A stretch of 64,000 nucleotides of DNA from Escherichia phage SSBS18_WS_10_728 (MT322327.1), one strand, 5' to 3'; counted from the stretch's first letter, positions 228-55,557 are shown. Notes: generated by a model not told the origin, from the sequence alone. Made by a program: numbers and translations.

Positions 228-303
228 TGGAGAATCCGAAGGGACTCGAACCCTTATAAACCTGTTTTGCAGACAGGCACATAGCCATTTCTGTCACGGA
301 TTC
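228..303 (-). tRNA. tRNA-Cys (anticodon GCA)
   Basis: Manual fold: acceptor GAATCCG/CGGATTC, T-arm GGGTTCGAGTCCC, anticodon loop CUGCAAA, encoded CCA. Confidence 0.6.
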
Positions 304-307
304 AAAT

Positions 308-400
308 TGGAGGAAGATACCAGACTTGAACTGGTACACCGATTTCTCAGCTACTGGCAGTTTAGCAAACTGCTCCCTTACCTTTTAGGGTTAATCTTCC
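308..400 (-). tRNA. tRNA-Ser (anticodon GCU), class II with long variable arm
   Basis: Acceptor GGAAGAT/ATCTTCC, anticodon stem GCAGT/ACTGC with loop UUGCUAA, T-arm ACCAGTTCAAGTCTGGT, CCA encoded; 93 nt. Confidence 0.55.
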
Positions 401-401
401 A

Positions 402-1136
402 TTATTTCTGTAATGCGTTCTTCATTTCTGGTGTTGCAATAGTGTCAATCACACCAGTTTTACAAGCATCATCAAACCAGTCTGGTAAGATACCTGCTAA
501 GAACCCATTGATATTCGTTTTAAGGTACTCTGCAATAAGGGCAGCTTCTTCTTCAATCATCTGAACAACTTCATCTGCATAAGCTGTAATCTTTGAAATA
601 CCTTCATTAATCTTATTAACAGCTTGGTTAGCTAAATCAGAAATAGTATCAAGACCTTTATCAATAGCATCCTGTAAGTCACTTAATACATCATTAACAC
701 CATCTAGTGTACTGTTAATCATATCCATAGCTTTTTGACCATACTCTGTAGCAACACCCATAATACCACTAAACGGTGTACAGCCAACTTGTTCCCCTGC
801 TGCACCCATAACATTAGAATAGCCTTTTGCTACCTGCATACGTGATGAAAACTCATCAATGGACTTTTGACCATAATCCGTCAGTGTTTTAGTGGTTGAT
901 GTAGTGCTTGTCAGACTCGTTGTAAAGCTGTTAAGCAGAACTGTTGTAAGTCCAGCAGCAACAAGTTTATCCTTTATTGTAGGGTCTGTTACAGAGCTAA
1001 TAGAGCTTACAAGTGATGTAGAGGCAGCTACGGTTCCACCTAGAACTGCTGCACCAGTAATAAGGGGATTAGAAAACCCTCTACCGGTTTTTAAGAGATT
1101 AAAAATCTCCTTACCTTGTTCTGTCATCTCTTTCAT
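402..1136 (-). CDS. hypothetical protein (Thr/Ser-rich)
   Basis: ORF 402..1199; start moved to internal ATG at 1136 (AAAGG RBS) because the 5' end overlaps tRNA-Phe. Confidence 0.45.
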   Translation of the reverse strand: MKEMTEQGKEIFNLLKTGRGFSNPLITGAAVLGGTVAASTSLVSSISSVTDPTIKDKLVAAGLTTVLLNSFTTSLTSTTSTTKTLTDYGQKSIDEFSSRMQVAKGYSNVMGAAGEQVGCTPFSGIMGVATEYGQKAMDMINSTLDGVNDVLSDLQDAIDKGLDTISDLANQAVNKINEGISKITAYADEVVQMIEEEAALIAEYLKTNINGFLAGILPDWFDDACKTGVIDTIATPEMKNALQK

Positions 1137-1152
1137 TAAGCACCTTTGAAAT

Positions 1153-1228
1153 TGGTAGTCCAGTGGGATTTGAACCCTCTTCTCATGTTTTTCAGACACG
1201 CGCTTTAACCATATAAGCTACTTGGACT
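1153..1228 (-). tRNA. tRNA-Phe (anticodon GAA)
   Basis: Acceptor stem 6/7 bp, T-arm GGGTTCAAATCCC, anticodon loop CUGAAAA, CCA encoded. Confidence 0.6.
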
Positions 1229-1234
1229 ATAAAT

Positions 1235-1310
1235 TGGGGTGACCTACGGGATTTGAACCCGTATAGACCATGTTCACAGCATGGGTCATTACCGTTTATG
1301 ATAAGGCCAC
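1235..1310 (-). tRNA. tRNA-His (anticodon GUG)
   Basis: Acceptor GTGGCCT/AGGTCAC, T-arm ACGGGTTCAAATCCCGT, anticodon loop CUGUGAA. Confidence 0.55.
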
Positions 1311-1341
1311 ATTTAAGGACTCTCGTAAGAACCCTTAGAAG

Positions 1342-1417
1342 TGGCAGCGGCATAAGGATTTGAACCTTAATAAGACAGCTTCAGAGACTGCTGCATTGCC
1401 AGTTATGCTATACCGCT
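1342..1417 (-). tRNA. tRNA-Gln (anticodon CUG), tentative
   Basis: D-stem GCAT/ATGC, anticodon stem GCAGT/GCTGT with loop CUCUGAA, T-arm TAAGGTTCAAATCCTTA, CCA encoded. Confidence 0.5.
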
Positions 1418-1422
1418 AAATT

Positions 1423-1501
1423 TGGTACTCCATATCGGATTCGAACCGATACATAACACAGATTTTAAGTCTGGCCTCTCTGCCAATTGGAGTAATGGAG
1501 C
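1423..1501 (-). tRNA. tRNA with Leu-type anticodon UAA but short variable arm (isotype uncertain)
   Basis: T-arm ATCGGTTCGAATCCGAT, CCA encoded, D-loop AATTGGCAGAG shared with tRNA at 2246..2323; anticodon loop CUUAAAA. Confidence 0.4.
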
Positions 1502-1503
1502 AT

Positions 1504-1578
1504 TGGCGGGGGATGTTGGAATTGAACCAACTTCTTCGATTTCAAAGACCGAGGTTTTAACCTTGTAAACTAATCCCC
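1504..1578 (-). tRNA. tRNA-Gln (anticodon UUG), tentative
   Basis: T-arm GTTGGTTCAATTCCAAC, anticodon stem TCGGT/ATCGA with loop CUUUGAA, CCA encoded. Confidence 0.5.
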
Positions 1579-1587
1579 TTTAAATCT

Positions 1588-2145
1588 TTACTTTCTCAGT
1601 GGATGAATAAAGAATGCCAACATAACTCTTTCCCTTGAGAATGCTCTTTCTTCTGGGACAACACTTTTAAGTTTCCAACCAACATAAATTCTCCAGTAGA
1701 ATTGTTTACCAAAGACTTTAATTGATGGGATAAAAGCGAATAACCCCCAAGCATTGCTGTTCCACATTAGGAGATAACCTGTCTGATTATCTTCAGGGTC
1801 AGAGCTTACGTTGATATTACCTTTCCACTTAGTAACATCTTTTACATCTCTTCCTAACACATGGTAAGAGAAGTTATAAGCTTTGTTTCTCCAGAGCCAT
1901 CCAACTCTCTGCAAATAGACACCCAGCTTACCAATCTTTCTAATCTTAGCCCATCTTTTAATGTGACCTTCATCACCATCAATAGGGTTGTCATATGTCT
2001 CCATCCATCTGAATCCAAAAGGTAGATGTCCTTTCTTCTCACTATAGAATGGAACTACAAAAGGTGCTAAGATAACTGCTAAGATTGCTGCCAATGGGTC
2101 TAGCAAAGCTAGGAAAATCCATGAAGCATACTTCAAATATCTCAT
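1588..2145 (-). CDS. hypothetical membrane-anchored protein inside the tRNA cluster
   Basis: 185-aa ORF, hydrophobic N-terminus, AAGAGG RBS 8 nt upstream of ATG. Confidence 0.55.
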   Translation of the reverse strand: MRYLKYASWIFLALLDPLAAILAVILAPFVVPFYSEKKGHLPFGFRWMETYDNPIDGDEGHIKRWAKIRKIGKLGVYLQRVGWLWRNKAYNFSYHVLGRDVKDVTKWKGNINVSSDPEDNQTGYLLMWNSNAWGLFAFIPSIKVFGKQFYWRIYVGWKLKSVVPEERAFSRERVMLAFFIHPLRK

Positions 2146-2164
2146 TTAAATAGCCTCTTTAAAT

Positions 2165-2240
2165 TGGCGCAGGATAAGGGATTCGAACCCCTATTAACAG
2201 CTTCGTAGACTGTTGCTCTATCCATTTGAACTAATCCTGC
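2165..2240 (-). tRNA. tRNA-Arg (anticodon ACG)
   Basis: Acceptor GCAGGAT/ATCCTGC perfect, anticodon stem ACAGT/GCTGT with loop CUACGAA, T-arm GGGGTTCGAATCCCTT. Confidence 0.55.
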
Positions 2241-2245
2241 AAAAT

Positions 2246-2323
2246 TGGTGTTCCAAGACGGATTCGAACCGTCACTAGTACAAGGTTTGAGCTTGCATCC
2301 TCTGCCAATTGGGATACTGGAAC
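2246..2323 (-). tRNA. tRNA with Leu-type anticodon CAA but short variable arm (isotype uncertain)
   Basis: T-arm GACGGTTCGAATCCGTC, anticodon stem GCAAG/CTTGT with loop CUCAAAC, CCA encoded. Confidence 0.4.
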
Positions 2324-2324
2324 A

Positions 2325-2399
2325 TGGTACTCACTAAAGGACTTGAACCTTTTTCTTCATCTTGTAATGGTGATGTTTTACCATATAAACTAAGCGAGT
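2325..2399 (-). tRNA. tRNA-Val (anticodon UAC), tentative
   Basis: D-stem GTTT/AAAC, T-arm AAAGGTTCAAGTCCTTT, anticodon loop AUUACAA. Confidence 0.4.
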
Positions 2400-2494
2400 G
2401 TGGAAGAGGTCTGAAGTTGTGCCGCTAACTCAACTCCGTGGAATTTGTTACGGTCTTCAGTTGACACCAGCGGTCTTTCACTTGACCTCTGAAT

Positions 2495-2571
2495 TGGTGC
2501 TGCTCACAGGACTCGAACCTGCATTTCCATCCTTACAAGGGATGTGTAATAGCCAATTATACGAAAGCAGC
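2495..2571 (-). tRNA. tRNA-Thr (anticodon UGU)
   Basis: Anticodon stem CATCC/GGATG perfect with loop CUUGUAA, T-arm GCAGGTTCGAGTCCTGT, CCA encoded. Confidence 0.6.
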
Positions 2572-2577
2572 ATTGTT

Positions 2578-2652
2578 TGGAGCATCCAGAGGGAATCGAA
2601 CCCTCAACCTCAGTTTGGAAGACTGTAATTTTCCCGTTTAAACTATGGATGC
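2578..2652 (-). tRNA. tRNA-Gly (anticodon UCC)
   Basis: Acceptor GCATCCA/TGGATGC perfect, T-arm GAGGGTTCGATTCCCTC, anticodon loop CUUCCAA. Confidence 0.55.
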
Positions 2653-2658
2653 ACTAAT

Positions 2659-2734
2659 TGGTGGAGTCACTGAGAATTGAACTCAGTTCCCAAGTTTGCA
2701 AAACTCGAATTTTAACCATATAAACTATGACCCC
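2659..2734 (-). tRNA. tRNA-Ala (anticodon UGC)
   Basis: Acceptor GGGGTCA with G3:U70 pair, T-arm CTGAGTTCAATTCTCAG, anticodon loop UUUGCAA. Confidence 0.6.
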
Positions 2735-2740
2735 AATGTT

Positions 2741-2816
2741 TGGTACAGGTGGAGGGAATTGAACCCATCGTCTTACTGATTAAGAGTCAGCCGCATAACC
2801 ATTTTGCTACACCTGC
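2741..2816 (-). tRNA. tRNA-Lys (anticodon CUU), tentative
   Basis: Acceptor GCAGGTG/CACCTGT, anticodon stem GCTGA/TCAGT with loop CUCUUAA, weak T-stem; paralog of tRNA at 4057..4132. Confidence 0.45.
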
Positions 2817-2823
2817 ATTAATT

Positions 2824-2901
2824 TGGTAGGAGACAAGGGATTCGAACCCTCAAACACCAACTTCTAAGGATGGTAGGTTTACCAATTACCGTCAATCTCC
2901 C
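2824..2901 (-). tRNA. tRNA with Leu-type anticodon UAG but short variable arm (isotype uncertain)
   Basis: T-arm GAGGGTTCGAATCCCTT, CCA encoded, anticodon loop CUUAGAA with 4/5-bp stem. Confidence 0.4.
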
Positions 2902-3156
2902 ATTAAATCTTTTTAGAGAACTTCTAAGAACCTAAGCAACAAGGTTCCACAACAAGCTGTAATAACCTTAGAAGCCCTCTAAAAAGACCTAAATAGGTCT
3001 TTACATAGTCTTGTTTAATCCGGTGACTAGAACCTTTGGAGAGCTTGATATTATCTCTTCTCCGTGACACCTACTAGGTGCTTTACTGTGCGTGTACGAC
3101 AATACACGAGGGATAAACCGAAAATGCGAGCAAGCATGACGGTGTAAATCTTATTA

Positions 3157-3246
3157 GGCGGTAAGTAAAGGAGTCGAACCCTCACCGTATCTCTACAGTG
3201 GCAACAGTTTTCAAGACTGTTTGGCTGCCATTAGCCGCTACCTACC
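3157..3246 (-). tRNA. tRNA-Ser (anticodon UGA), class II
   Basis: Acceptor GGTAGGT/ACTTACC, anticodon stem ACAGT/ACTGT perfect with loop CUUGAAA, long variable arm, T-loop TTCGACT; 3' CC encoded. Confidence 0.6.
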
Positions 3247-3259
3247 CCTAATAAGACTT

Positions 3260-3342
3260 TGGCATGGGACGGAGGAGTTGAACCCCTTTGAAACGGTTTT
3301 GGAGGCCGTTGCTCATGCCTTAGAGTCTTAACATCGTCCCAC
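3260..3342 (-). tRNA. tRNA, possibly Trp (anticodon CCA); atypical length
   Basis: Acceptor GTGGGAC/GTCCCAT, T-arm AGGGGTTCAACTCCTCC, CCA encoded, hairpin with loop CUCCAAA; D region ~7 nt too long in my fold. Confidence 0.35.
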
Positions 3343-3484
3343 ACTATAATTCGAAGCTTACCGTATTTTCGCAACACTGTAAAGCCCCTTCTCAGATTAT
3401 TTACATGTTCTGGAAAACATGAGATACAGACCACCTCCTTACACGGAGACCCGATAAGGTCGTCTAAGCAATCTGCTAACTATT

Positions 3485-3561
3485 TGGCACACCCTACAGG
3501 ATTCGAACCTGTAACTCAATGATTAGAAGTCATTTGCTCTGTCCAGTTGAACTAAGGGTGC
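3485..3561 (-). tRNA. tRNA-Arg (anticodon UCU)
   Basis: Anticodon stem AATGA/TCATT perfect with loop CUUCUAA, T-arm ACAGGTTCGAATCCTGT, CCA encoded. Confidence 0.6.
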
Positions 3562-3854
3562 ATTAATCTTTAAAGACTCTCTTAGAAAGCCCTTAAAGAT
3601 GCCCACTTTATTAATCATACCGTGGGCTAGTACGCCAAATTCTTTGATGAGGGATTGGAAGACCTCACTGGTGTTTAGCCTATCAAGCTACTGCCAGAAA
3701 AACATTGTCGTTTGCATTTATTTTAAATTTGCAAAATAGACGCTACGCAACGAAAACTATTCAGAATATGTACAACAAATTTCCCCACATTGTGTTACGT
3801 CTAACGCTCATGTATTGGTGTTTGAATTATACATATTATGAATCATTTTTAGTT

Positions 3855-3883
3855 ACTATAAAGCGGTCACATCTCAATGTCAA
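3855..3883 (-). promoter_or_regulatory. sigma70-like promoter reading leftward into tRNA genes
   Basis: Minus strand: -35 TTGACA, 17-bp spacer, -10 TATAGT. Confidence 0.5.
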
Positions 3884-3898
3884 CAACTTTATTGAAAT

Positions 3899-3974
3899 TG
3901 GTACTGGTAGGTGGAATCGAACCACCGATATTCCCTTATCAGGGGAGTGTTATAACCTTCTTAACTATACCAGC
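3899..3974 (-). tRNA. tRNA-Ile (anticodon GAU)
   Basis: Acceptor GCTGGTA/TACCAGT, T-arm GGTGGTTCGATTCCACC, anticodon loop CUGAUAA. Confidence 0.55.
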
Positions 3975-3975
3975 T

Positions 3976-4052
3976 TGGAGGTTCAGATGGGAATCGAACC
4001 CACATTCATAGGGCTTATGAAACCCCTGCATTACCTTATCTGCGACTGAACC
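3976..4052 (-). tRNA. tRNA-Met (anticodon CAU; elongator or Ile2-type)
   Basis: Acceptor GGTTCAG/CTGAACC perfect, anticodon stem GGGGT/GCCCT with loop UUCAUAA, T-arm GTGGGTTCGATTCCCAT. Confidence 0.55.
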
Positions 4053-4056
4053 ATAT

Positions 4057-4132
4057 TGGTAGAAGTGGAGGGATTCGAACCCATCGCCTGTCAGATTAAA
4101 AGTCTGCCGCATCACCATTCTGCTACACTTCC
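4057..4132 (-). tRNA. tRNA-Lys (anticodon UUU)
   Basis: Acceptor GGAAGTG/CACTTCT, anticodon stem GCAGA/TCTGA with loop CUUUUAA, CCA encoded. Confidence 0.5.
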
Positions 4133-4333
4133 ATTAAATTATCTTTGTAGATAAGCTACCCAGACTTGCTTAAGGTCTGTAGCGATGTGCCTTGTTGGGT
4201 TTAAATCTAGAATTTACCCTTTCACCCTTTGTGGTCGCATACTCACAGGTAAGCTTAATAGCTCACCTACAAAGATAATTACCAGACCGTTGTTTATCAT
4301 CTTAAGTGCTACCATTACACCAACTCGACATCT

Positions 4334-4357
4334 GCCGAGTGAAGGAATCGAACCTTC
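4334..4357 (-). other. orphan tRNA T-arm-like element (possible tRNA remnant)
   Basis: Perfect T-arm GAAGGTTCGATTCCTTC on minus strand but no matching 5' acceptor strand or CCA nearby. Confidence 0.3.
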
Positions 4358-4393
4358 GCCTTTTCTTTACCGGAGAAATAGATTGTTTAAGTT

Positions 4394-4413
4394 TTGCTGT
4401 AAACGGTCTTCTG
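4394..4413. repeat. tRNA-cluster repeat copy A (TTGCTG-N5-GGTCTTCTG)
   Basis: One of four 20-nt copies; CCAGACC partner at 4281 and 4424. Confidence 0.6.
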
Positions 4414-4483
4414 TAAATTTGTTGAGCCAGACCAAGTTTTAAATTTTTTCAAAATTAAATTGGCTTGAAAATATCATACGTGC

Positions 4484-4503
4484 TTGCTGAATTTGGTCTT
4501 CTG
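4484..4503. repeat. tRNA-cluster repeat copy B
   Basis: TTGCTGAATTTGGTCTTCTG; CCAGACC partner at 4424. Confidence 0.6.
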
Positions 4504-4591
4504 CTCCTTTAAAGAACACTCGTAAGAACCCTTTAAGGGAGGGGCTAAAATAGCCCTCTCAAAACATCATCTTGAAATACTTATTATAATT

Positions 4592-4669
4592 TGGCGGTTA
4601 CGAAGGGATTTGAACCCTCATCATCTCCCGTGACAGGGGAGTATTTTAACCAGATTAAACTACATAACC
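4592..4669 (-). tRNA. tRNA-Asp (anticodon GUC)
   Basis: Anticodon stem CTCCC/GGGAG perfect with loop CUGUCAC, T-arm GAGGGTTCAAATCCCTT, CCA encoded. Confidence 0.65.
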
Positions 4670-4675
4670 TTTATT

Positions 4676-4763
4676 TGGTGTGCCGTGTAGGAGTCGAACC
4701 TACCGAGTCTCAATGACAAGGGATTTACAGTCCCCACCGCTACCATCTACGGGATAACGACAC
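4676..4763 (-). tRNA. tRNA-Tyr (anticodon GUA), class II
   Basis: Acceptor GTGTCGT/ACGGCAC, anticodon loop CUGUAAA, long variable arm, T-arm GTAGGTTCGACTCCTAC, CCA encoded; 88 nt. Confidence 0.6.
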
Positions 4764-4772
4764 ATTTAAATT

Positions 4773-4849
4773 TGGCGGTTAGTCAGGGATTCGAACCCTG
4801 TGCCATTCGCTTAACAGGCGACCGCACATACCTTATGTGCTTCCTAACC
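4773..4849 (-). tRNA. tRNA-Asn (anticodon GUU)
   Basis: D-stem GCAC/GTGC, anticodon loop CUGUUAA, T-arm CAGGGTTCGAATCCCTG, CCA encoded. Confidence 0.6.
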
Positions 4850-4900
4850 TTAATACATTGCCAGACCGTGTTTTTTCTTTTATCCGCAAAAAGTATTTTG

Positions 4901-4920
4901 TTGCTGAATACGGTCTTCTG
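4901..4920. repeat. tRNA-cluster repeat copy C
   Basis: TTGCTGAATACGGTCTTCTG, 6 nt from 3' end of tRNA-Met; CCAGACC partner at 4861. Confidence 0.6.
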
Positions 4921-4926
4921 CAAAAT

Positions 4927-5003
4927 TGGAGGCGGGTGCAGGAGTCGAACCTGCCGATACCATGCTAATGAGACATGTGAGACGCCCTTTCTCTATACCC
5001 GCA
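4927..5003 (-). tRNA. tRNA-Met (anticodon CAU), possible initiator
   Basis: Anticodon stem CATGT/GCATG with loop CUCAUUA, T-arm GCAGGTTCGACTCCTGC, unpaired 1:72 position, CCA encoded. Confidence 0.5.
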
Positions 5004-5067
5004 ATTCTTAATGACCAGACCAAATCTCTTCTTTGTCCGATTTACCTTCAGATGAATAAGATTAAGT

Positions 5068-5087
5068 TTGCTGTAATTGGTCTTCTG
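5068..5087. repeat. tRNA-cluster repeat copy D
   Basis: TTGCTGTAATTGGTCTTCTG, 7 nt from 3' end of tRNA-Glu; CCAGACC partner at 5015. Confidence 0.6.
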
Positions 5088-5094
5088 TCAAAAC

Positions 5095-5172
5095 TGGCGT
5101 TCCAGAAGGGATTTGAACCCTCAAATATCCACTTTGAAAGAGTGGTGACTTTACCATTTTGTCCACTGGAAC
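5095..5172 (-). tRNA. tRNA-Glu (anticodon UUC)
   Basis: Anticodon stem CCACT/AGTGG perfect with loop CUUUCAA, T-arm GAGGGTTCAAATCCCTT, CCA encoded. Confidence 0.6.
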
Positions 5173-5179
5173 ATTAATT

Positions 5180-5256
5180 TGGTCTCTGTTGGAGGACTTG
5201 AACCTCCGGCCTTACCGCCCCAAACGGAACGCTCTACCAAGCTGAGCTAAACAGAG
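5180..5256 (-). tRNA. tRNA-Pro (anticodon UGG)
   Basis: Acceptor CTCTGTT/AACAGAG perfect, anticodon loop UUUGGGG, T-arm GGAGGTTCAAGTCCTCC, CCA encoded. Confidence 0.6.
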
Positions 5257-5421: not shown

Positions 5422-6837
5422 TTACCAGATGTAACGGTCAATCATTACTGCTTTGAGCATTACGCTGGTTGGGTCAAACTTCTCACCACCAAGCAGAGCT
5501 TTTAAAGTGGCTGGAGAGAACCCTGATACCATTGCTACACCGTTATCCTTAACAGATACTTCGCAAGTACCATTACGGTTTGCTAAGTACCAGAATACCA
5601 GTTGTGGCATTTCGTATCCAGCTTTTTTGTACTTACTACGAATTGCTTCAAAGTTTGTACGACCATTTGCACCATCAACCTGATTAAACTCCATATCAGA
5701 GAAGATGATAAGCTTACTTGGCATATCTTTCTGAGTCAAGTTGTTTCTCTTACCTGTCTCAAGAATACGGTCAAAAGCTGCTTGTAAATTAGTTGAACCA
5801 TACTCAACATGACGCATCACCTGACGATGACGGTTTCGTAAATCACCACTCAGTTCGATGAAGTGAGGGTTTGTTGAGTAAACCATTAACTCATTCTTAA
5901 AGCAACCAGTATTGCGTTCTGCTACATACAAGGCAAGTGATACACCAATATCAAGTGCAGTGATTGAACCAAGATTCACCCAAGACATTGAGCTTGAAAC
6001 ATCAGTCATACACAAGATGTTCTCACCTTCTGCCATCCAGTTTGGTAGTGCTTTCCACTGCTCATTGGCAACATCTGCATTACCATGTTTGATAGACTTA
6101 ATCACATCGTATGGGTAAACAGCACCAGCGTTAATCTTAGCCTCACCCTTTGAGAGTGACTCGATGTAAGCTTTGTAACGTTCTCCATCTTTACGGTTAA
6201 AGAGTTTTTGGTAACGTGCAGCAGCAAGAGAAGGAATCTTACTGTAGTCGATTTTACCAAACTCATTAGCAGAGATTTTTTGCTCAACTGTATCAGAAAG
6301 TGCAGACAACAGTGTGCGGTACTCTTTCTCACTCAAGTTAGCAAACTTGCAGAAACGTTTTACAAACTGTTTGTGGCGTGGTTTTACTCGTGGTAACCAC
6401 TTGGCTGCTAAACCTGCTGTTTCAGGGTCTAGTAATGCTGCTTCTAAGTGCTTAAAGGCATCTGTCTCAAAACGAGTACCTACGAAGATTTTGAAGTCAT
6501 CAAAACGACCAAGCTCTGCAATCTTATCCATAATGCGAAGAACCTGTGTAGGCTCTAAAACTTTATCTTCAATTGCTTGAAGTAAAACAGTTCTGAAGGC
6601 TTTACGCTCACCCATACCTTCTCGTACATCTCGCATGTGAAGCAAAATACGAACTGCAACATCAACATCCTCACGCAAAGCTTTGTAGAACAAATCTGGT
6701 AAGATTTCTACATTACTACGGCTGGAACCAGCAGCTTTGTAAAAGTCCACAAGAGCAGACATTGATGAAGTATGGTTTACAGCACCATTTTCAGTTCGAC
6801 CTGCATGAAGGTGCGCATGTTTAAATAATTCGCTCAT
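5422..6837 (-). CDS. vWA-domain protein (MIDAS motif DxSxS), possibly DUF2828-like
   Basis: 471-aa ORF; motif MTDVSSSMS; GAGAG RBS upstream. Confidence 0.55.
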   Translation of the reverse strand: MSELFKHAHLHAGRTENGAVNHTSSMSALVDFYKAAGSSRSNVEILPDLFYKALREDVDVAVRILLHMRDVREGMGERKAFRTVLLQAIEDKVLEPTQVLRIMDKIAELGRFDDFKIFVGTRFETDAFKHLEAALLDPETAGLAAKWLPRVKPRHKQFVKRFCKFANLSEKEYRTLLSALSDTVEQKISANEFGKIDYSKIPSLAAARYQKLFNRKDGERYKAYIESLSKGEAKINAGAVYPYDVIKSIKHGNADVANEQWKALPNWMAEGENILCMTDVSSSMSWVNLGSITALDIGVSLALYVAERNTGCFKNELMVYSTNPHFIELSGDLRNRHRQVMRHVEYGSTNLQAAFDRILETGKRNNLTQKDMPSKLIIFSDMEFNQVDGANGRTNFEAIRSKYKKAGYEMPQLVFWYLANRNGTCEVSVKDNGVAMVSGFSPATLKALLGGEKFDPTSVMLKAVMIDRYIW

Positions 6838-25860: not shown

Positions 25861-26325
25861 TTAACCGAGGACTTTAGCAAGGACATTTGCAGCCATCGAA
25901 GAAGCTTTTGCAGCAGCAGCTACCCCAGCTTTAATAGCGTTATCCTTGATAGCAGATACCGTTGCAGCATCAGTAAAGAGATAAGTAGTTGTTTTAGAAC
26001 CACTTGTAAAGGAAAGCATAAGAGCAGTTTCCAGATTGAAAGAGCGATACGGAGCACCTTCTTTAACGATACCTTCAGCACCTAACTCTGAAGCCATACC
26101 CATATCATAGATAGTCATCAGGTTTTCTTTGTGTGCAGTCGTTGAGCCAGCACCTTTGACGTGTTTCTTAACATTAAGAAGAGCACGGTATTCTCGGATG
26201 TTACCATCTGCTTTTACATTGACAGCACGGAAGATTTTACCCTCAAAGTTGCTTTTGATAATGTTACGAACTACTTCAGATTTGTTTGCCGTAACGTCCA
26301 GTGCTACCGTAATGATATTGTTCAT
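25861..26325 (-). CDS. hypothetical protein
   Basis: 154-aa ORF, Ala-rich C-terminus. Confidence 0.5.
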   Translation of the reverse strand: MNNIITVALDVTANKSEVVRNIIKSNFEGKIFRAVNVKADGNIREYRALLNVKKHVKGAGSTTAHKENLMTIYDMGMASELGAEGIVKEGAPYRSFNLETALMLSFTSGSKTTTYLFTDAATVSAIKDNAIKAGVAAAAKASSMAANVLAKVLG

Positions 26326-26335
26326 AAGTTTTCTC

Positions 26336-27031
26336 TCAATGTTTTACTAACATAGTTTTAATGTGCGGAAGGATTCTGTTTACCTTCTGAACATTCTTCT
26401 CTGTATCTTCTATAAAACATACTATATTAAAGTAAGGAAGAATGCAAGACTGAATCATCCTGACTTTCAAACTTTCTGCATTTATAGAGTTAGTTCCAAA
26501 ACCACGCATAAAAAGCATGTAATCGTGCTCTATGTTATGCCTTAAAAACATCTCAGTAGGTATTCTCTGAGATTCACCTCTCGCTGTCAAGAGTCCAATG
26601 GCAGCGTGATTAGCAATTGCATCAATAATACTAAAAACATACGTTGGTTTTGCTCTTACAGAGTCAAGAAGATTAGTGTACTGTGAGAATGACCCATCAG
26701 TCAATTCCGTTGAGCAATCTTCGTGATTAAAATTTGTAAGAACACCATCAATATCTGCTAAGATGAGGTTACCTTTTTCTACAAGGTCTTTATTGACTAT
26801 GACTAAACTGTCACGTCTTACACCTATAGATTGTCCAGTCTCTTTGTCCACAACGTTCACAATTGGTTCTGATGTGTGGAACTCTTCAAGTGAACATACA
26901 ACCTCTCTTGCAGTGTCTTCAAAATCCCTGCACTGTTCTGGAGTCCATATACAGGAATCAAGACCTAACTCATGAGGATGCAAGTCGTAAGCATGACACA
27001 GCACTTCATCAGACTTTCTTAATTTTTTCAT
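26336..27031 (-). CDS. HAD-like phosphatase / 5'-nucleotidase-like protein (tentative)
   Basis: DxDGV-type motif ILADIDGVLT; motif lies ~90 residues in, so assignment is weak. Confidence 0.4.
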   Translation of the reverse strand: MKKLRKSDEVLCHAYDLHPHELGLDSCIWTPEQCRDFEDTAREVVCSLEEFHTSEPIVNVVDKETGQSIGVRRDSLVIVNKDLVEKGNLILADIDGVLTNFNHEDCSTELTDGSFSQYTNLLDSVRAKPTYVFSIIDAIANHAAIGLLTARGESQRIPTEMFLRHNIEHDYMLFMRGFGTNSINAESLKVRMIQSCILPYFNIVCFIEDTEKNVQKVNRILPHIKTMLVKH

Positions 27032-53147: not shown

Positions 53148-55290
53148 ATGGAAAACGTAGATTTTAAAAACTTACATTTAGTTGGTGATACAGAAACTGA
53201 TGGTTTACTCCTTGAGTTCACTAAGGTGCACGTAATGGCTTTCGCAGACTATAAATCTGACGATGAAGAGCCACCTGTATGGGTCTTTACAGACGAGCCT
53301 ATCCTCGGTCACAAGTATACCAAGCACATTAAGGGTGGTTTACGTGAAGGTGTTGAGTTTGCGTTAAAGGCAAAACGACTTTGCATCCATAATGGTCTGG
53401 GATATGACTGGTGGGTTTTCAATCACATCGCACCTGATTTGTGGAACTTTGATAATCCAAAGTGTAAACCGTGGAGTAATTTCTTTCAGGACTCTCTTAT
53501 CCAGTCTCGTGTTCAGTGGATGGATAGACCAACTCCAAAAGGCTATAAAGGTGCTCATGGCTTGGCTGCATGGGGTGCTCGTGTTGGTGTACGTAAACCA
53601 GAGATTGAACATTGGGGTGTGTGGAATGCAGAAATCTTCACTCGTGTTGTGGAAGATATCCGTATTAACGCCAAAACTAAACGTGCACTGGATAATGAAT
53701 ACCTGAAGTTAAAGAAGTGTGGTATAGACACTTATGAAACCTATATGCGAGCTAAAGAAACATCTTTCTGGATGAGTCAACAAGCTATCAATGGTTGGAA
53801 AGCTGATAAAGAGCTTATGGAGTTCCATGTAAAGGAGCTTGACAAGTTGACTAATGAGCTTGCTTCGGAAGTTGAACCACACCTTCCTCCAACTATTAAG
53901 ACCAAAGGTAAAGTCACTGGAGAAGAGTTTGCAAAAGCTTGGAATGAGTATGTGGAAGCGTTCGGTCATGCAGATGGACTGAAGAGAATTACCAAGTACC
54001 CTAAGACGAAGTACCGTCAGCAGGTACGTAACGGTGAGATGCAGACATACGAAATCAAACCATTTGGTAAGCCAACTACAAAGATTTTTAACATTGAAAA
54101 GAGAAATTGTTATACACCAACCAACTCTGTAACTGGTGAAGAGTACAAGGAAGGTTTTGTAGCAATGAAGGATGCTCGTGCAATTTGCAATGAGTTGAAT
54201 GCAAAGATTGGTAAGAAATGCAAAGACTGGAAGCCAGTAAAAACAGTTAAAACTGTGAAGTACTATAACAGTCATGTTGTTAACCACTTTGAGCTTGAGT
54301 CAAGTCGCTACACAGGTTTGATTGATGCACCATATACCCCAATTGAGTTCGAAGTTTCTCGTATGACTCAGGTAGCAGTTGTTAAAGACTACTTGAAATC
54401 AGTTGGTTGGATTCCAGATGACTGGAACTACAAGAAAGACTCAGATGGTCGTCCTGTCAAAGTTTGTCGTTTCAAAGACAACAAAAAGATGATTACAAAG
54501 CATCCTAAGTGGCAGGAGATGGTTGAACGGTGTGGCTTGAGTTATGTTGAACATGAAGGTGTCCAGTACATTGAACATAACTGGTCTGTGAAGAAGTACA
54601 CAGATTTGCTTGAGCCTTGCTTAATCCGTACTTCACCAAAACTTACTGAATCTTCTTACGATACGATTGAAGGTGAGCTTGGACAGAAGATTGCTAAGTA
54701 CTACACTTTGATGCACCGACGCAGAACTATTGAGAACTCAAAGGATGATGAAAAAGGCTGGTTGAACCAGATTCGTCCTGATGGTCGCCTTAGTGCTGGT
54801 GCAATGGTATTTGGTACTTCAACTGGACGTATGACACAATATGGTATTGTAAACGTACCGTCTGGTGCTGCTGTCTATGGGGAACCGATGAGGGCAGTGT
54901 GGATTTGTGAAGAAGGTACTAACGTTGTCTCTGTAGACATGAACTCAGCCCAGCTAGTTCTCCTTTGTAACTTTATGGGTGACAAAGAGTTCACTAAAGC
55001 AGTAACTGAAGGTAAAGAGTCAGTAGAATTTACCAAGCAAGAAGATGGGAGATATTATTGCAAACATCTTGATAAGTACCTTAATCCAGAAACTGATAAG
55101 TATCTTCGTTATGATGCTGAGAATGACCTCTATGAAGTCTACACAGGTACTGATGCACATACACTGAACAGTATCTATTTTGCATTGAACAAAGAGGATG
55201 ACATTATTCGTTGTAGAGAAACTCAGGATGAAGAACTTCTTCACGAGATAACTAAAGGCCGTAAGAAGGCTAAGAATGGTATCTATGCGT
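53148..55290 (+). CDS. DNA polymerase family A, exon 1 (3'-5' exonuclease and N-terminal polymerase domains)
   Basis: Exo I motif VGDTETDGL; motif A VDMNSAQLVLL; AGAGGGA RBS before ATG 53148; reading frame is interrupted where polymerase motif B begins. Confidence 0.75.
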
Positions 55291-55557
55291 CAGTGGCGCA
55301 TGTAAAACGTTGTGAATTGCTGGAAGCCTAAGTCTGAGAAGATACGGTAATCAGCAGCGAAGCCTCTTGAGAGGAACGTTCAGAGACTATCGAAAAGCAT
55401 ACTTAATGTATGAACTGAGTAGAGTAGGGTGGTAAGCTAATGACCATTCCCAAGTGCAACGGTAGCATCCTGCTACGTGATATAGTCCGACACTCCGTAG
55501 AAATGCGGAGAAGTTCATAAGAGAACTGGTACACCTTGCGAGTGTATTGACCAGATG
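55291..55557 (+). ncRNA. group I self-splicing intron in the DNA polymerase gene
   Basis: Exon 1 ends in U paired to G of internal guide GCGCA (P1 = exon UGCGU with intron GCGCA); intron ends in G; splicing restores in-frame motif B ...IYALLFGAGDEKF... Confidence 0.7.

What the first reader, a model, noticed from the sequence alone, without database searches (positions are those of the whole stretch)
2401..2490. tRNA-like structured element without a canonical T-loop
On the minus strand a 90-nt segment has a perfect 7-bp terminal stem (AGAGGTC/GACCTCT) followed by an unpaired base and CCA, and an internal CTGAAG/CTTCAG stem, but no TTCRA T-loop. It sits between canonical tRNAs and may be a degenerate tRNA, a tRNA-derived regulatory RNA or another stable small RNA. 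The orphan T-arm at 4334-4357 may be a second tRNA remnant.
Basis: seen in the sequence. Interest (0 to 1): 0.45.

Follow-up and report, generated by a model that had tools for sequence, protein, structure and literature searches.

The report
Conserved non-tRNA RNA in phage tRNA cluster
The 90-base segment is not a tRNA or tRNA remnant but a conserved, rod-shaped small-RNA gene of unknown partner sitting in a "tRNA slot" of a Felix O1-like phage, and the "orphan T-arm" nearby belongs to a Y-RNA-like tRNA mimic encoded next to a previously unrecognised Ro60-like protein gene.

Summary
The window is a Felix O1-like phage with 26 tRNAs. The segment 2401-2490(-) is real. The 7-bp terminal stem exists, the fold is better than all 200 shuffles, and it is as conserved as the neighbouring tRNA genes. 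It is unannotated in 259 phage genomes.

It is not tRNA-like. No tRNA, tmRNA or other Rfam model matches. The "CCA" is a one-base peculiarity of this lineage (1 of 43 distinct contexts). The consensus is an irregular rod with a 27-nt near-invariant 5' strand and loop. Three base pairs show compensatory change.

The best reading is a stable small RNA released from the tRNA transcript by processing of its neighbours. It most likely acts as a protein-binding RNA; the partner is unknown.

The gene just upstream of the cluster (5422-6837) folds as a Ro60/TROVE ring protein. Four spacers carry a stem plus CAGCAA-box RNA family that tracks this gene across distant phages (86 hits on the gene strand, 1 opposite). 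The 90-nt element lacks that box and persists in phage Av-05, which has no Ro-like gene, so it is not a member.

The parts
2401..2490 (-). The element E: 90-nt conserved rod-shaped RNA occupying a tRNA slot
   Evidence: Fold z=-3.4. Present in 259 phage records and never annotated as RNA. Own covariance model scores 115.5 bits here and 83.5 bits in Av-05.
2484..2490 (-). P1 5' strand AGAGGUC (terminal stem)
   Evidence: Pairs with 2405-2411. Pair 4-84 is G-C in 19 variants, U-A in 3 and G-U in 1.
2405..2411 (-). P1 3' strand GACCUCU
2469..2475 (-). P2 5' strand G.CCGCU
   Evidence: Pair 20-68 is G-C in 21 variants, A-U in 1 and G-U in 1. Pair 16-71 is G-C in 19 and A-U in 3; this pair depends on the alignment.
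2421..2426 (-). P2 3' strand AGCGGC
2439..2465 (-). Near-invariant core GUCAACUGAAGACCGUAACAAAUUCCA (P3 5' strand, GAAGA bulge, P4 5' strand, apical loop)
   Evidence: Identical in Felix O1-type and Av-05-type copies. Only 2 of 27 columns vary among 43 distinct contexts.
2430..2435 (-). P3 3' strand AGUUGA (pairs with UCAACU at 2459-2464)
   Evidence: U-A changes to U-G in 4 variants; no other change.
2436..2439 (-). P4 3' strand ACGG (pairs with CCGU at 2450-2453)
   Evidence: G-C changes to G-U in 3 variants.
2401..2404 (-). 3' tail UCCA, not conserved
   Evidence: Tail census: TCCAC in 1 of 43 contexts.
2495..2571 (-). tRNA-Thr(tgt), 4 nt upstream of E
2325..2399 (-). tRNA-Val(tac). Its RNase P site lies 5 nt after P1.
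   Evidence: Processing is inferred.
5422..6837 (-). Ro60-like protein gene (DUF2828 + DUF7788), context only
   Evidence: Pfam. AlphaFold pLDDT 87. The Foldseek top 10 are all Ro60/TROVE, E = 6e-8 to 4e-6.
4279..4416 (-).
4424..4506 (-). CAGCAA-box RNA copy D
4858..4923 (-). CAGCAA-box RNA copy B. Its 5' arm CAGAAGACCGUA matches E's CUGAAGACCGUA at 11 of 12 positions.
5012..5090 (-). CAGCAA-box RNA copy A

Best explanation
E is a gene for a small, stable, non-tRNA RNA.

How it is made (inferred):
- It is transcribed as part of the polycistronic tRNA precursor Leu-Lys-Ala-Gly-Thr-E-Val-Leu-Arg.
- It is set free as a by-product of host tRNA processing of its neighbours. RNase P cuts at the 5' end of tRNA-Val, 5 nt after E's terminal stem. 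Endonuclease cutting and 3' trimming of tRNA-Thr act 4 nt before E.
- The 6-7 bp terminal stem shields both ends from exonucleases.

How it acts:
- The RNA folds into an irregular rod (P1, P1b, P2, P3, GAAGA bulge, P4, 10-nt loop).
- Its working surface is the near-invariant 27-nt 5' strand and apical loop.
- This surface is most likely read sequence-specifically by a protein, so E would act in trans as a protein-binding (tether, decoy or sponge-type) RNA.
- The partner is unknown. It must be a host factor or something shared by Felix O1-like and Av-05-like phages.

Shown: the conserved structure, the gene-like conservation, and that E is not a tRNA. Inferred: co-transcription, the processing route, protein binding and action in trans.
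For: Conservation:
- E is as conserved as the tRNA genes. 25.6% of its columns vary, against 26.7-36.4% for tRNA-Val, tRNA-Leu and tRNA-Thr. The core varies at 7.4% of columns and the adjoining tail and spacer at 60%.
- Between Felix O1-type phages and the otherwise distant Av-05, only tRNAs, E (83%) and one protein gene still align. Ordinary spacers do not.

Structure:
- 97.7% of cells pair, with 0 of 500 shuffles as high. Controls with the partners slid drop to 24-43%.
- There are compensatory changes at three pairs, two of them with G-U intermediates. P3 and P4 change only by wobble.
- RNAalifold gives the same rod. Fold z = -3.4.

Not protein-coding:
- Variants differ in length by 1-2 nt.

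Transcription and spacing:
- No promoter-like or terminator-like site lies inside or next to E. The nearest strong promoter-like site on this strand is at 3883-3855.
- The gaps to the neighbouring tRNAs (4 and 5 nt) are the same size as the tRNA-tRNA gaps in this cluster.

Mode of recognition:
- The 5' strand is invariant while the 3' strand drifts. This is the pattern described for protein-read Y RNA stems (10.1101/312249).

Precedent:
- T4 rnaC and rnaD are annotated stable RNAs in the T4 tRNA cluster.
Against: - There are no expression data. I found no transcriptome of a Felix O1-like phage.
- No partner is identified.
- Covariation rests on few events because the sequence hardly varies. 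The RNAalifold covariation term is about 0.
- The Av-05 copy folds less convincingly on its own (z = -1.55).
- Conservation comparable to genes would also fit a purely cis-acting processing element.
Confidence: 0.5

Rival explanations
1. E is a diverged member of the phage's Ro60-associated (Y RNA-like) RNA set. It would bind the DUF2828 Ro-like protein encoded 2.9 kb upstream through its AGA...UCU closing stem and/or the C(U/A)GAAGACCGUA hairpin.
For: - E lies on the same strand as, and within 4 kb of, a Ro60-like gene. This is the criterion used for bacterial Y RNAs (PMC4201824).
- It has a 5'/3' terminal stem, internal loops and a length of 90 nt, as Y RNAs do.
- P1 has the AGR-N4/N4-YCU form of the CAGCAA-box family.
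- The 5' strand of its inner hairpin matches the 5' arm of copies B and C at 11 of 12 positions.
Against: - E lacks the family's one invariant feature, the CAGCAA box, and the trailing G.
- The Rfam YrlA model gives no hit at E<=10.
- E's own model finds nothing in 75 distant Ro-like loci or in FBKp34.
- Av-05 keeps E at 83% identity but has neither a Ro-like gene nor any CAGCAA-box RNA.
Confidence: 0.2
2. E acts only in cis. It would be a structured spacer that guides or insulates processing of the tRNA precursor (an RNase III or RNase E entry site, or a folding insulator), or a protective 5' stem for downstream RNA. It would have no function once released.
For: - It sits in the middle of a tRNA operon with tRNA-like spacing.
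- Its rod shape with internal loops resembles processing stems.
- In Av-05 it is the last structured unit before protein-coding genes.
Against: - A processing stem needs shape, not 27 invariant bases that include a 10-nt apical loop and a bulge.
- The other 20-odd tRNA junctions in the cluster do without such an element.
- Its downstream neighbours differ between the two phage groups (three tRNAs in one, an ORF in the other), yet E is kept.
Confidence: 0.2
3. E is a degenerate or unusual tRNA, or a tRNA-like molecule with an acceptor stem and a CCA end. It might be charged or recognised by tRNA enzymes.
For: - It has a 7-bp terminal stem followed by N-CCA in this window.
- It occupies a tRNA slot.
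- The phage tRNA set lacks only tRNA-Trp.
Against: - The CCA is present in 1 of 43 distinct contexts.
- No tRNA, tRNA-Sec or tmRNA model hit at E<=10, and ARAGORN is silent.
- There is no T-loop or D-loop, and no cloverleaf is possible.
- All real tRNAs in the cluster encode their CCA.
- E is under purifying selection and is not decaying.
Confidence: 0.04
4. E is not an RNA feature. It would be a DNA-level site or a short ORF.
For: A few records annotate a hypothetical protein across it.
Against: - Variants differ by 1-2 nt indels.
- Substitutions are compensatory and wobble-compatible on one strand.
- Its strand and spacing match those of the tRNAs.
Confidence: 0.03

Closest known systems
Phage T4 stable RNAs rnaC (species 1) and rnaD (species 2)
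   Same: They are non-tRNA, tRNA-sized to about 140-nt stable RNAs. They are encoded inside a phage tRNA cluster on the tRNA strand, only a few bases from a tRNA gene. Their function is still unknown (own knowledge).
   Different: There is no sequence or model similarity. rnaC carries a canonical T-arm, CCGGG-UUCGAAU-CCCGG, and E has none. The phage families differ.
Bacterial and phage Y RNAs (YrlA, YrlB, Yrn1) bound by Ro60/Rsr
   Same: They are 80-130 nt with a 5'/3' terminal stem and internal loops. The 5' strand is conserved more than the 3' strand. They are encoded near a Ro60-type gene on the same strand. E in this window meets these loose criteria.
   Different: E has no GNCGAA(N)G motif, no tRNA-like module and no Rfam YrlA hit. 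It also occurs in Av-05, which has no Ro-type gene.
Stem + CAGCAA-box RNAs next to DUF2828 Ro-like genes
   Same: They are neighbours in the same tRNA cluster, with a 7-bp closing stem of the form AGR...YCU. E's inner 5' arm is almost identical to that of window copies B and C.
   Different: E lacks the CAGCAA box and the 3' G. It does not co-occur with the protein gene in Av-05.
Spacer-derived small RNAs of bacterial tRNA operons (such as E. coli 3'ETS-leuZ)
   Same: They are released from a tRNA precursor by the tRNA-processing enzymes and then act in trans (own knowledge).
   Different: Those act by base-pairing as sponges for sRNAs. I found no convincing complementary target for E in the phage and no similarity in E. 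coli genomes.

Membership tests
tRNA (Rfam RF00005 / ARAGORN) | Cloverleaf with D-arm, anticodon arm and T-arm; model score at or above 29 bits | tested here: not met
   No ARAGORN call. No Rfam tRNA, tRNA-Sec or tmRNA hit, even at E<=10 on 2380-2510. The consensus fold is an unbranched rod.
tRNA (Rfam RF00005 / ARAGORN) | Conserved discriminator + CCA 3' end (encoded in all 26 tRNAs of this cluster) | tested here: not met
   TCCA occurs in only 1 of 43 distinct contexts. Av-05-type copies have TCTA or ACTA.
Y RNA / YrlA (RF02553) | Encoded within about 4 kb of a Ro60-type gene, on the same strand | tested here: inconclusive
   Met in the window: the Ro60-like ORF ends at 5422 and E starts at 2490. 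Not met in Av-05, which has E but no such gene.
Y RNA / YrlA (RF02553) | Long stem formed by the 5' and 3' ends | tested here: met
   P1 and P1b, supported by covariation.
Y RNA / YrlA (RF02553) | Conserved 5'-strand motif GNCGAA(N0-1)G (vertebrates: GGUCCGA) | tested here: not met
   E's 5' end is AGAGGUCAAGUGAAAG, which has no such motif.
Y RNA / YrlA (RF02553) | tRNA-like module: T stem-loop, closed acceptor stem-loop and D stem-loop; covariance model match | tested here: not met
   E has none of these arms and no YrlA hit at E<=10. By contrast, copy C at 4279-4416 has all three arms.
Y RNA / YrlA (RF02553) | Physical binding to the Ro60-type protein | not testable with these tools
   Needs RIP/CLIP or a gel-shift assay.
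   E has AAG-UGAAAG after P1, and U after the 3' arm.
   The family has 86 hits on the gene strand and 1 on the opposite strand in 75 distant loci, and none in the Av-05 tRNA cluster. E is present in Av-05.
T4 rnaC / rnaD | Sequence or structure homology | tested here: not met
   The E model, run with filters off on the T4 tRNA region, gives only noise of 9 bits or less, and none of it lies at rnaC or rnaD.
T4 rnaC / rnaD | Accumulates as a discrete stable RNA in infected cells | not testable with these tools
   No transcriptome of a Felix O1-like phage was found.

The most novel reading that the evidence does not exclude
E is the founding member of a new class of phage small RNA. It would derive from the Ro60-associated Y-like RNAs of the same cluster (it shares their AGR...YCU closing stem and the 5' arm C(A/U)GAAGACCGUA) but have become autonomous. 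It would bind a host RNA-metabolism or defence factor through its invariant 27-nt strand and loop. That autonomy would explain how it moved, together with tRNA-Gly and the DUF7338 gene, into a phage lineage that lacks the Ro-like protein. Together with the Ro60-like protein and the CAGCAA-box RNAs, it would make the phage "tRNA cluster" a multi-RNA ribonucleoprotein toolkit rather than only a codon-supply device.
Probability: 0.15. Interest if true: 0.7.

Novelty: new member of a known kind. Interest (0 to 1): 0.5.

Why it matters
Phage tRNA clusters are usually read only as tRNA supply. Here one "empty" slot holds an RNA that is conserved as tightly as the tRNAs in more than 250 sequenced phages, many of them therapeutic or typing phages, and nobody has annotated it.

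Following it also exposed the neighbourhood. There is a Ro60-like ring protein gene and a large, strand-locked family of stem + CAGCAA-box RNAs, some of them YrlA-type tRNA mimics, across hundreds of phages of Gram-negative and Gram-positive hosts.

This makes three questions directly testable:
- What do Ro/Y-RNA systems do for viruses?
- Why are they embedded among tRNAs?
- Is the 90-nt RNA a further component of that system or an independent decoy?

Tried and rejected
- Rfam at the gathering threshold and at E<=10 on the element gave only meaningless snoRNA fragments.
- Similarity to 5,426 E. coli genomes: none.
- Antisense targets of the loop or of any 9-12-mer within the 64-kb window were at chance level.
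- Homology to T4 rnaC and rnaD: none.
- E's own covariance model found no copy in 75 distant Ro-like loci, FBKp34 or T4, and no paralogue in the window.
- IMG/VR pattern scans that let P4 or the loop vary yielded only single-base variants.
- 53 of the 74 metagenome stretches were chance matches.
- GAAGACC as the shared binding motif was rejected. It is not conserved in the family outside this phage group.
- I tried threading E onto a cloverleaf, a tRNA-Sec shape or an intron-containing tRNA, and considered it as the missing tRNA-Trp. No consistent arms result (by inspection).
- A CsrA-type GGA site was rejected because the GGA is lost in Av-05. A loop pseudoknot with 22-26 was rejected because it is not conserved among variants.
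- The single-sequence AlphaFold model of the ORF was unusable (pLDDT 43.5).
- The profile search against PDB sequences gave only E=0.59 to Ro60. The fold comparison was needed.
- My first regex for the box was off by one and missed the window's own copies. It was corrected.
- The first conservation table was contaminated by chance loci. It was redone.
- Two reviews on bacterial Y RNAs were not held in the library.

Full report
**1. Where we are**

The window is a Felix O1-like phage (Felixounavirus). A 1.2-kb piece around the finding matches 255 phage records at 80-99% identity. ARAGORN finds 26 tRNA genes on the minus strand between 228 and 5256. They cover every amino acid except Trp. The finding is the 95-nt gap between tRNA-Thr (2495-2571) and tRNA-Val (2325-2399).

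**2. The observation**

Read on the minus strand, the 90 nt are AGAGGUCAAGUGAAAGACCGCUGGUGUCAACUGAAGACCGUAACAAAUUCCACGGAGUUGAGUUAGCGGCACAACUUCAGACCUCUUCCA.

- The 7-bp terminal stem, the unpaired U plus CCA, the CTGAAG/CTTCAG complementarity and the absence of a T-loop are all as described.
- The fold is better than all 200 dinucleotide shuffles (-30.2 kcal/mol, z = -3.4).
- That internal stem also shares its last G with the terminal stem.

**3. It is not a tRNA**

- ARAGORN does not call it.
- No Rfam family reaches the gathering score here.
- A permissive scan of 2380-2510 at E<=10 returns only two meaningless snoRNA fragments. There is no tRNA, tRNA-Sec, tmRNA or YrlA hit.
- The element is present in 259 phage records and is nowhere annotated as an RNA. 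Felix O1, GEP101 and NBSal004 all show an empty gap.

**4. The CCA is an accident of this lineage**

- Twelve of the 259 records are identical to the window over all 90 nt.
- Every other distinct variant I could read has U or A where the first C of the CCA would be.
- Among 43 distinct Felix O1-type contexts the tail is TTCAT (16), TTCAC (13), TTTCAT, TTAAA, TCAAA and so on. TCCAC occurs once, in the window.
- Av-05-type copies have TCTA or ACTA.
- The five tail and spacer positions vary in 60% of columns, so they behave like any spacer.

**5. It is a conserved structured RNA**

Distribution:
- The element occurs in Felixounavirus, Mooglevirus and Suspvirus at 94-100% identity.
- It occurs at 81-83% identity in a small group of Vequintavirinae (Av-05, TH18, 24-2-1). 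There it directly follows tRNA-Gly(tcc).
- A metagenome scan added 21 true copies, including an 81-kb-contig lineage, L138.

Structure, on 23 distinct variants using the RNAalifold consensus (P1 6 bp, P1b 3 bp, P2 6 bp, P3 6 bp, P4 4 bp):
- 97.7% of cells pair. No shuffle out of 500 reaches this. Sliding the partners drops pairing to 24-43%.
- Three pairs show changes on both sides:
  - 4-84 in P1 is G-C in 19 variants, U-A in 3 and G-U in 1.
  - 20-68 in P2 is G-C in 21, A-U in 1 (L128) and G-U in 1 (L191).
  - 16-71 changes from G-C to A-U, but this pair depends on the alignment.
- P3 and P4 change only by wobble: U-A to U-G four times and G-C to G-U three times.
- The support is real but modest, because very little varies. 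The RNAalifold covariation term is about zero.

Conservation:
- Stem to stem, 25.6% of E's columns vary among the 43 contexts. The figures are 26.7% for tRNA-Val, 28.2% for tRNA-Leu and 36.4% for tRNA-Thr.
- In the 27-nt block GUCAACUGAAGACCGUAACAAAUUCCA (2465-2439), only 2 of 27 columns vary. That block is identical in the Av-05 group.
- Variants differ in length by 1-2 nt, which excludes a coding frame.

**6. Comparison with Av-05**

- Most proteins shared by the window and Av-05 are 26-44% identical.
- The DUF7338 protein (window 1588-2145) is 81% identical.
- At the DNA level only tRNAs, E (83%), that gene (76%) and one 52-nt piece align. Ordinary spacers do not.
- So a block made of tRNA-Gly, E and DUF7338 was exchanged between the lineages. 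Since then E has been kept like a gene.

**7. The neighbourhood: a Ro60-like gene**

The 471-aa ORF 5422-6837(-) lies directly upstream of the cluster on the same strand.

- It matches Pfam DUF2828 + DUF7788 and PHROG 850, "RNA-binding protein".
- An AlphaFold model built with 40 homologues is confident (pLDDT 87.2, pTM 0.87).
- Its ten best matches among solved structures are all Ro60/TROVE proteins: Thermus phage phiLo Ro60 9KOP/9L5Y, Xenopus Ro 1YVP/2I91, human Ro60 and Deinococcus Rsr 2NVO. E-values run from 6e-8 to 4e-6, and TM reaches 0.65 over the full length. After these come vWA-only hits at E of about 4e-3.
- By tblastn it has full-length relatives in 709 phage records. These include mycobacteriophage proteins annotated "Ro-like RNA binding protein" (about 34% identity) and proteins of Listeria, Staphylococcus, Vibrio, Campylobacter and jumbo phages.

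**8. The neighbourhood: a family of partner RNAs, including the "orphan T-arm"**

Four spacers in the window share one design: an outer 4-bp stem that differs between copies but stays complementary, an AGA/G internal loop, a 7-bp stem AGACCNN/NNGGUCU, and then AUU or UUA followed by CAGCAA.

I scanned 75 loci around distant homologues of the protein (39-48% identity).
- The design "AG + N4-5 stem, 3-4 nt, CAGCAA ... complementary stem + G" occurs 86 times on the gene strand and once on the other strand. It is found in 49 of the 75 loci.
- The stems are different everywhere, and many copies abut the gene.
- Without the AG and G requirements the count is 140 against 34. The consensus is AGRWUNN-NUW-CAGCAA...NNAWYCU-G.
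- All tRNAs in these loci are on the gene's strand.

About a dozen members enclose a T-loop. Rfam's YrlA model matches several of these below its threshold but significantly, four of them at full length (29-39 bits; E = 4e-5 to 5e-2, and 1.7e-7 on a narrow stretch).

Window copy C (4279-4416) encloses, in this order:
- a hairpin;
- the T-arm GAAGG-UUCGAUU-CCUUC (4357-4341);
- a closed acceptor-like stem-loop ACUCGGC-AGAU-GUCGAGU;
- a D-arm GUGU-AAUGGUA-GCAC.

This is the order of T stem-loop, acceptor stem-loop and D stem-loop described for YrlA, which its authors call a circularly permuted tRNA with a closed acceptor stem. The Rfam YrlA model itself does not reach E<=10 on the window copy, so this assignment rests on architecture and family context.

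FBKp34 and Listeria phage CKA15 show the same hairpins next to their DUF2828 genes.

**9. Is E one of these RNAs?**

Points of resemblance:
- It lies 2.9 kb downstream of the Ro-like gene on the same strand.
- It has a 5'/3' stem of the form AGA...UCU.
- The 5' strand of its inner hairpin, CUGAAGACCGUA, matches the 5' arm of copies B and C at 11 of 12 positions.

Points against:
- It lacks the CAGCAA box and the trailing G.
- Its model finds nothing in the 75 loci, FBKp34 or T4.
- Av-05 has no Ro-like gene by tblastn or profile search over the whole 120,938-bp genome, and it has no CAGCAA-box RNA in its tRNA cluster. Yet it keeps E.

I therefore do not file E under that family. A derived, autonomous relative remains possible.

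**10. Mechanism**

Shown:
- E has a conserved rod structure and gene-like conservation.
- It is not a tRNA and not coding.
- No promoter-like or terminator-like site is next to it.
- Its spacing to the neighbouring tRNAs is tRNA-like.

Inferred:
- E is co-transcribed with the flanking tRNAs.
- It is released by RNase P cleavage at tRNA-Val and by 3' processing of tRNA-Thr.
- Its ends are protected by P1.
- It acts in trans through the invariant 5' strand, bulge and loop, most probably as a protein-binding surface. The asymmetry between an invariant 5' strand and a drifting 3' strand is what is described for Ro-Y RNA recognition.

I found no antisense target in the phage and no similarity in E. 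coli genomes.

Rivals are a divergent Y-like RNA, a purely cis-acting processing element, and a tRNA-like molecule. Only the last is clearly contradicted.

**11. Comparison with what is known**

- The closest analogues by context are T4 rnaC and rnaD. They are annotated stable RNAs inside the T4 tRNA cluster and are not homologous to E.
- The closest analogues by form are Y RNAs.
- E is a new, narrowly distributed RNA family of a known general kind.

**12. Verdict**

The stem, the fold and the context are real. The CCA and the internal stem do not hold up.
E is a stable small RNA, not a tRNA relic.
- Interest is moderate for E itself. It is raised by the Ro60-like protein and the CAGCAA-box RNA system that E and the T-arm led to.

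Noticed in passing
window 5422-6837 (-): This 471-aa ORF directly upstream of the tRNA cluster is a Ro60/TROVE-like ring + vWA protein (Pfam DUF2828 + DUF7788). The top 10 PDB fold matches are all Ro60, and it has 709 phage records with homologues. Databases mostly call it hypothetical, vWFA or "RNA-binding protein".
   Followed up: yes
window 5012-5090, 4858-4923, 4424-4506, 4279-4416 (-); L042-L116, L118, L119: There is a family of 33-216-nt RNAs with a covarying closing stem (AGR...YCU-G) and an invariant CAGCAA box 3 nt after the stem. It has 86 hits on the Ro-like gene's strand against 1 on the opposite strand in 75 distant phage loci. Members with T-loops match Rfam YrlA below threshold. 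They appear to be the Y-RNA-type partners of DUF2828 proteins, with a signature different from the published GNCGAA(N)G.
   Followed up: partly
window 4862-4915 (-); L058 11844-11900; L119 3623-3678: The short CAGCAA-box RNAs resemble Dictyostelium class I RNAs (Rfam RF01414). Those are about 60 nt with a covarying 5'/3' stem, a conserved 5' G paired to the C of a 3' CUGU, and the box CCUUACAGCAA next to the 5' stem strand. They are reported as absent outside dictyostelids (PMC7919456). The Rfam hits score 23-31 bits, below the family's gathering score of 41.5. Pfam lists DUF2828 in eukaryotes and viruses. I could not test whether dictyostelids have such a protein.
   Followed up: partly
L119 2428-2979 (Listeria phage CKA15, record about 26,195-26,746): The "small ORFs" CKA15_059-061 were reported to make up as much as 67% of phage transcripts (PMC12282133). 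They match Rfam ROOL RNA (RF03087; 90.1 bits against a gathering score of 99.1; E=2e-18). Three CAGCAA-box hairpins lie separately at 3622-3885, just upstream of the DUF2828 gene.
   Followed up: partly
window 1588-2145 (-) and Av-05 5598-6140: The DUF7338 membrane-type protein is 81% identical between the window and Av-05, while other shared proteins are 26-44% identical. This marks a recently exchanged block made of tRNA-Gly, E and DUF7338.
   Followed up: partly
window 3257-3307 (-): A 52-nt piece is 81% identical to Av-05 5490-5541, although it lies in a spacer. It overlaps a weak tRNA-Sec-like hit at 3266-3340 (23 bits). It may be another conserved non-tRNA or degenerate tRNA element.
   Followed up: no
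window 55279-55510 (+): A group I intron passes the Rfam gathering score (60.6 bits, E=6.7e-13).
   Followed up: no
window 3562-3957 (-): There are weak tmRNA and permuted-tmRNA matches (16-21 bits) in the 337-nt spacer between tRNA-Ile and tRNA-Arg. One distant Ro-like locus (L058 8605-9054) has a full tmRNA gene (75 bits) beside the Ro-like gene.
   Followed up: no
L004 about 1335-1415 (Av-05): An uncalled tRNA-like sequence (GGGAGTGTAGATCAG...CACTCCCACCA) with an odd T-loop lies between tRNA-Tyr and tRNA-Gly. A long hairpin, CTGTACTGGC...GCCAGTACAG, precedes it.
   Followed up: no
window 228-5256 (-): The 26 phage tRNAs cover 19 amino acids. Only tRNA-Trp is missing.
   Followed up: no
L118 17003-17116 (Klebsiella phage FBKp34): A feature annotated as a 114-nt "tRNA-Asp" is too long for a tRNA and contains a TTTACAGCA stretch. 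It is probably a misannotated composite.
   Followed up: no
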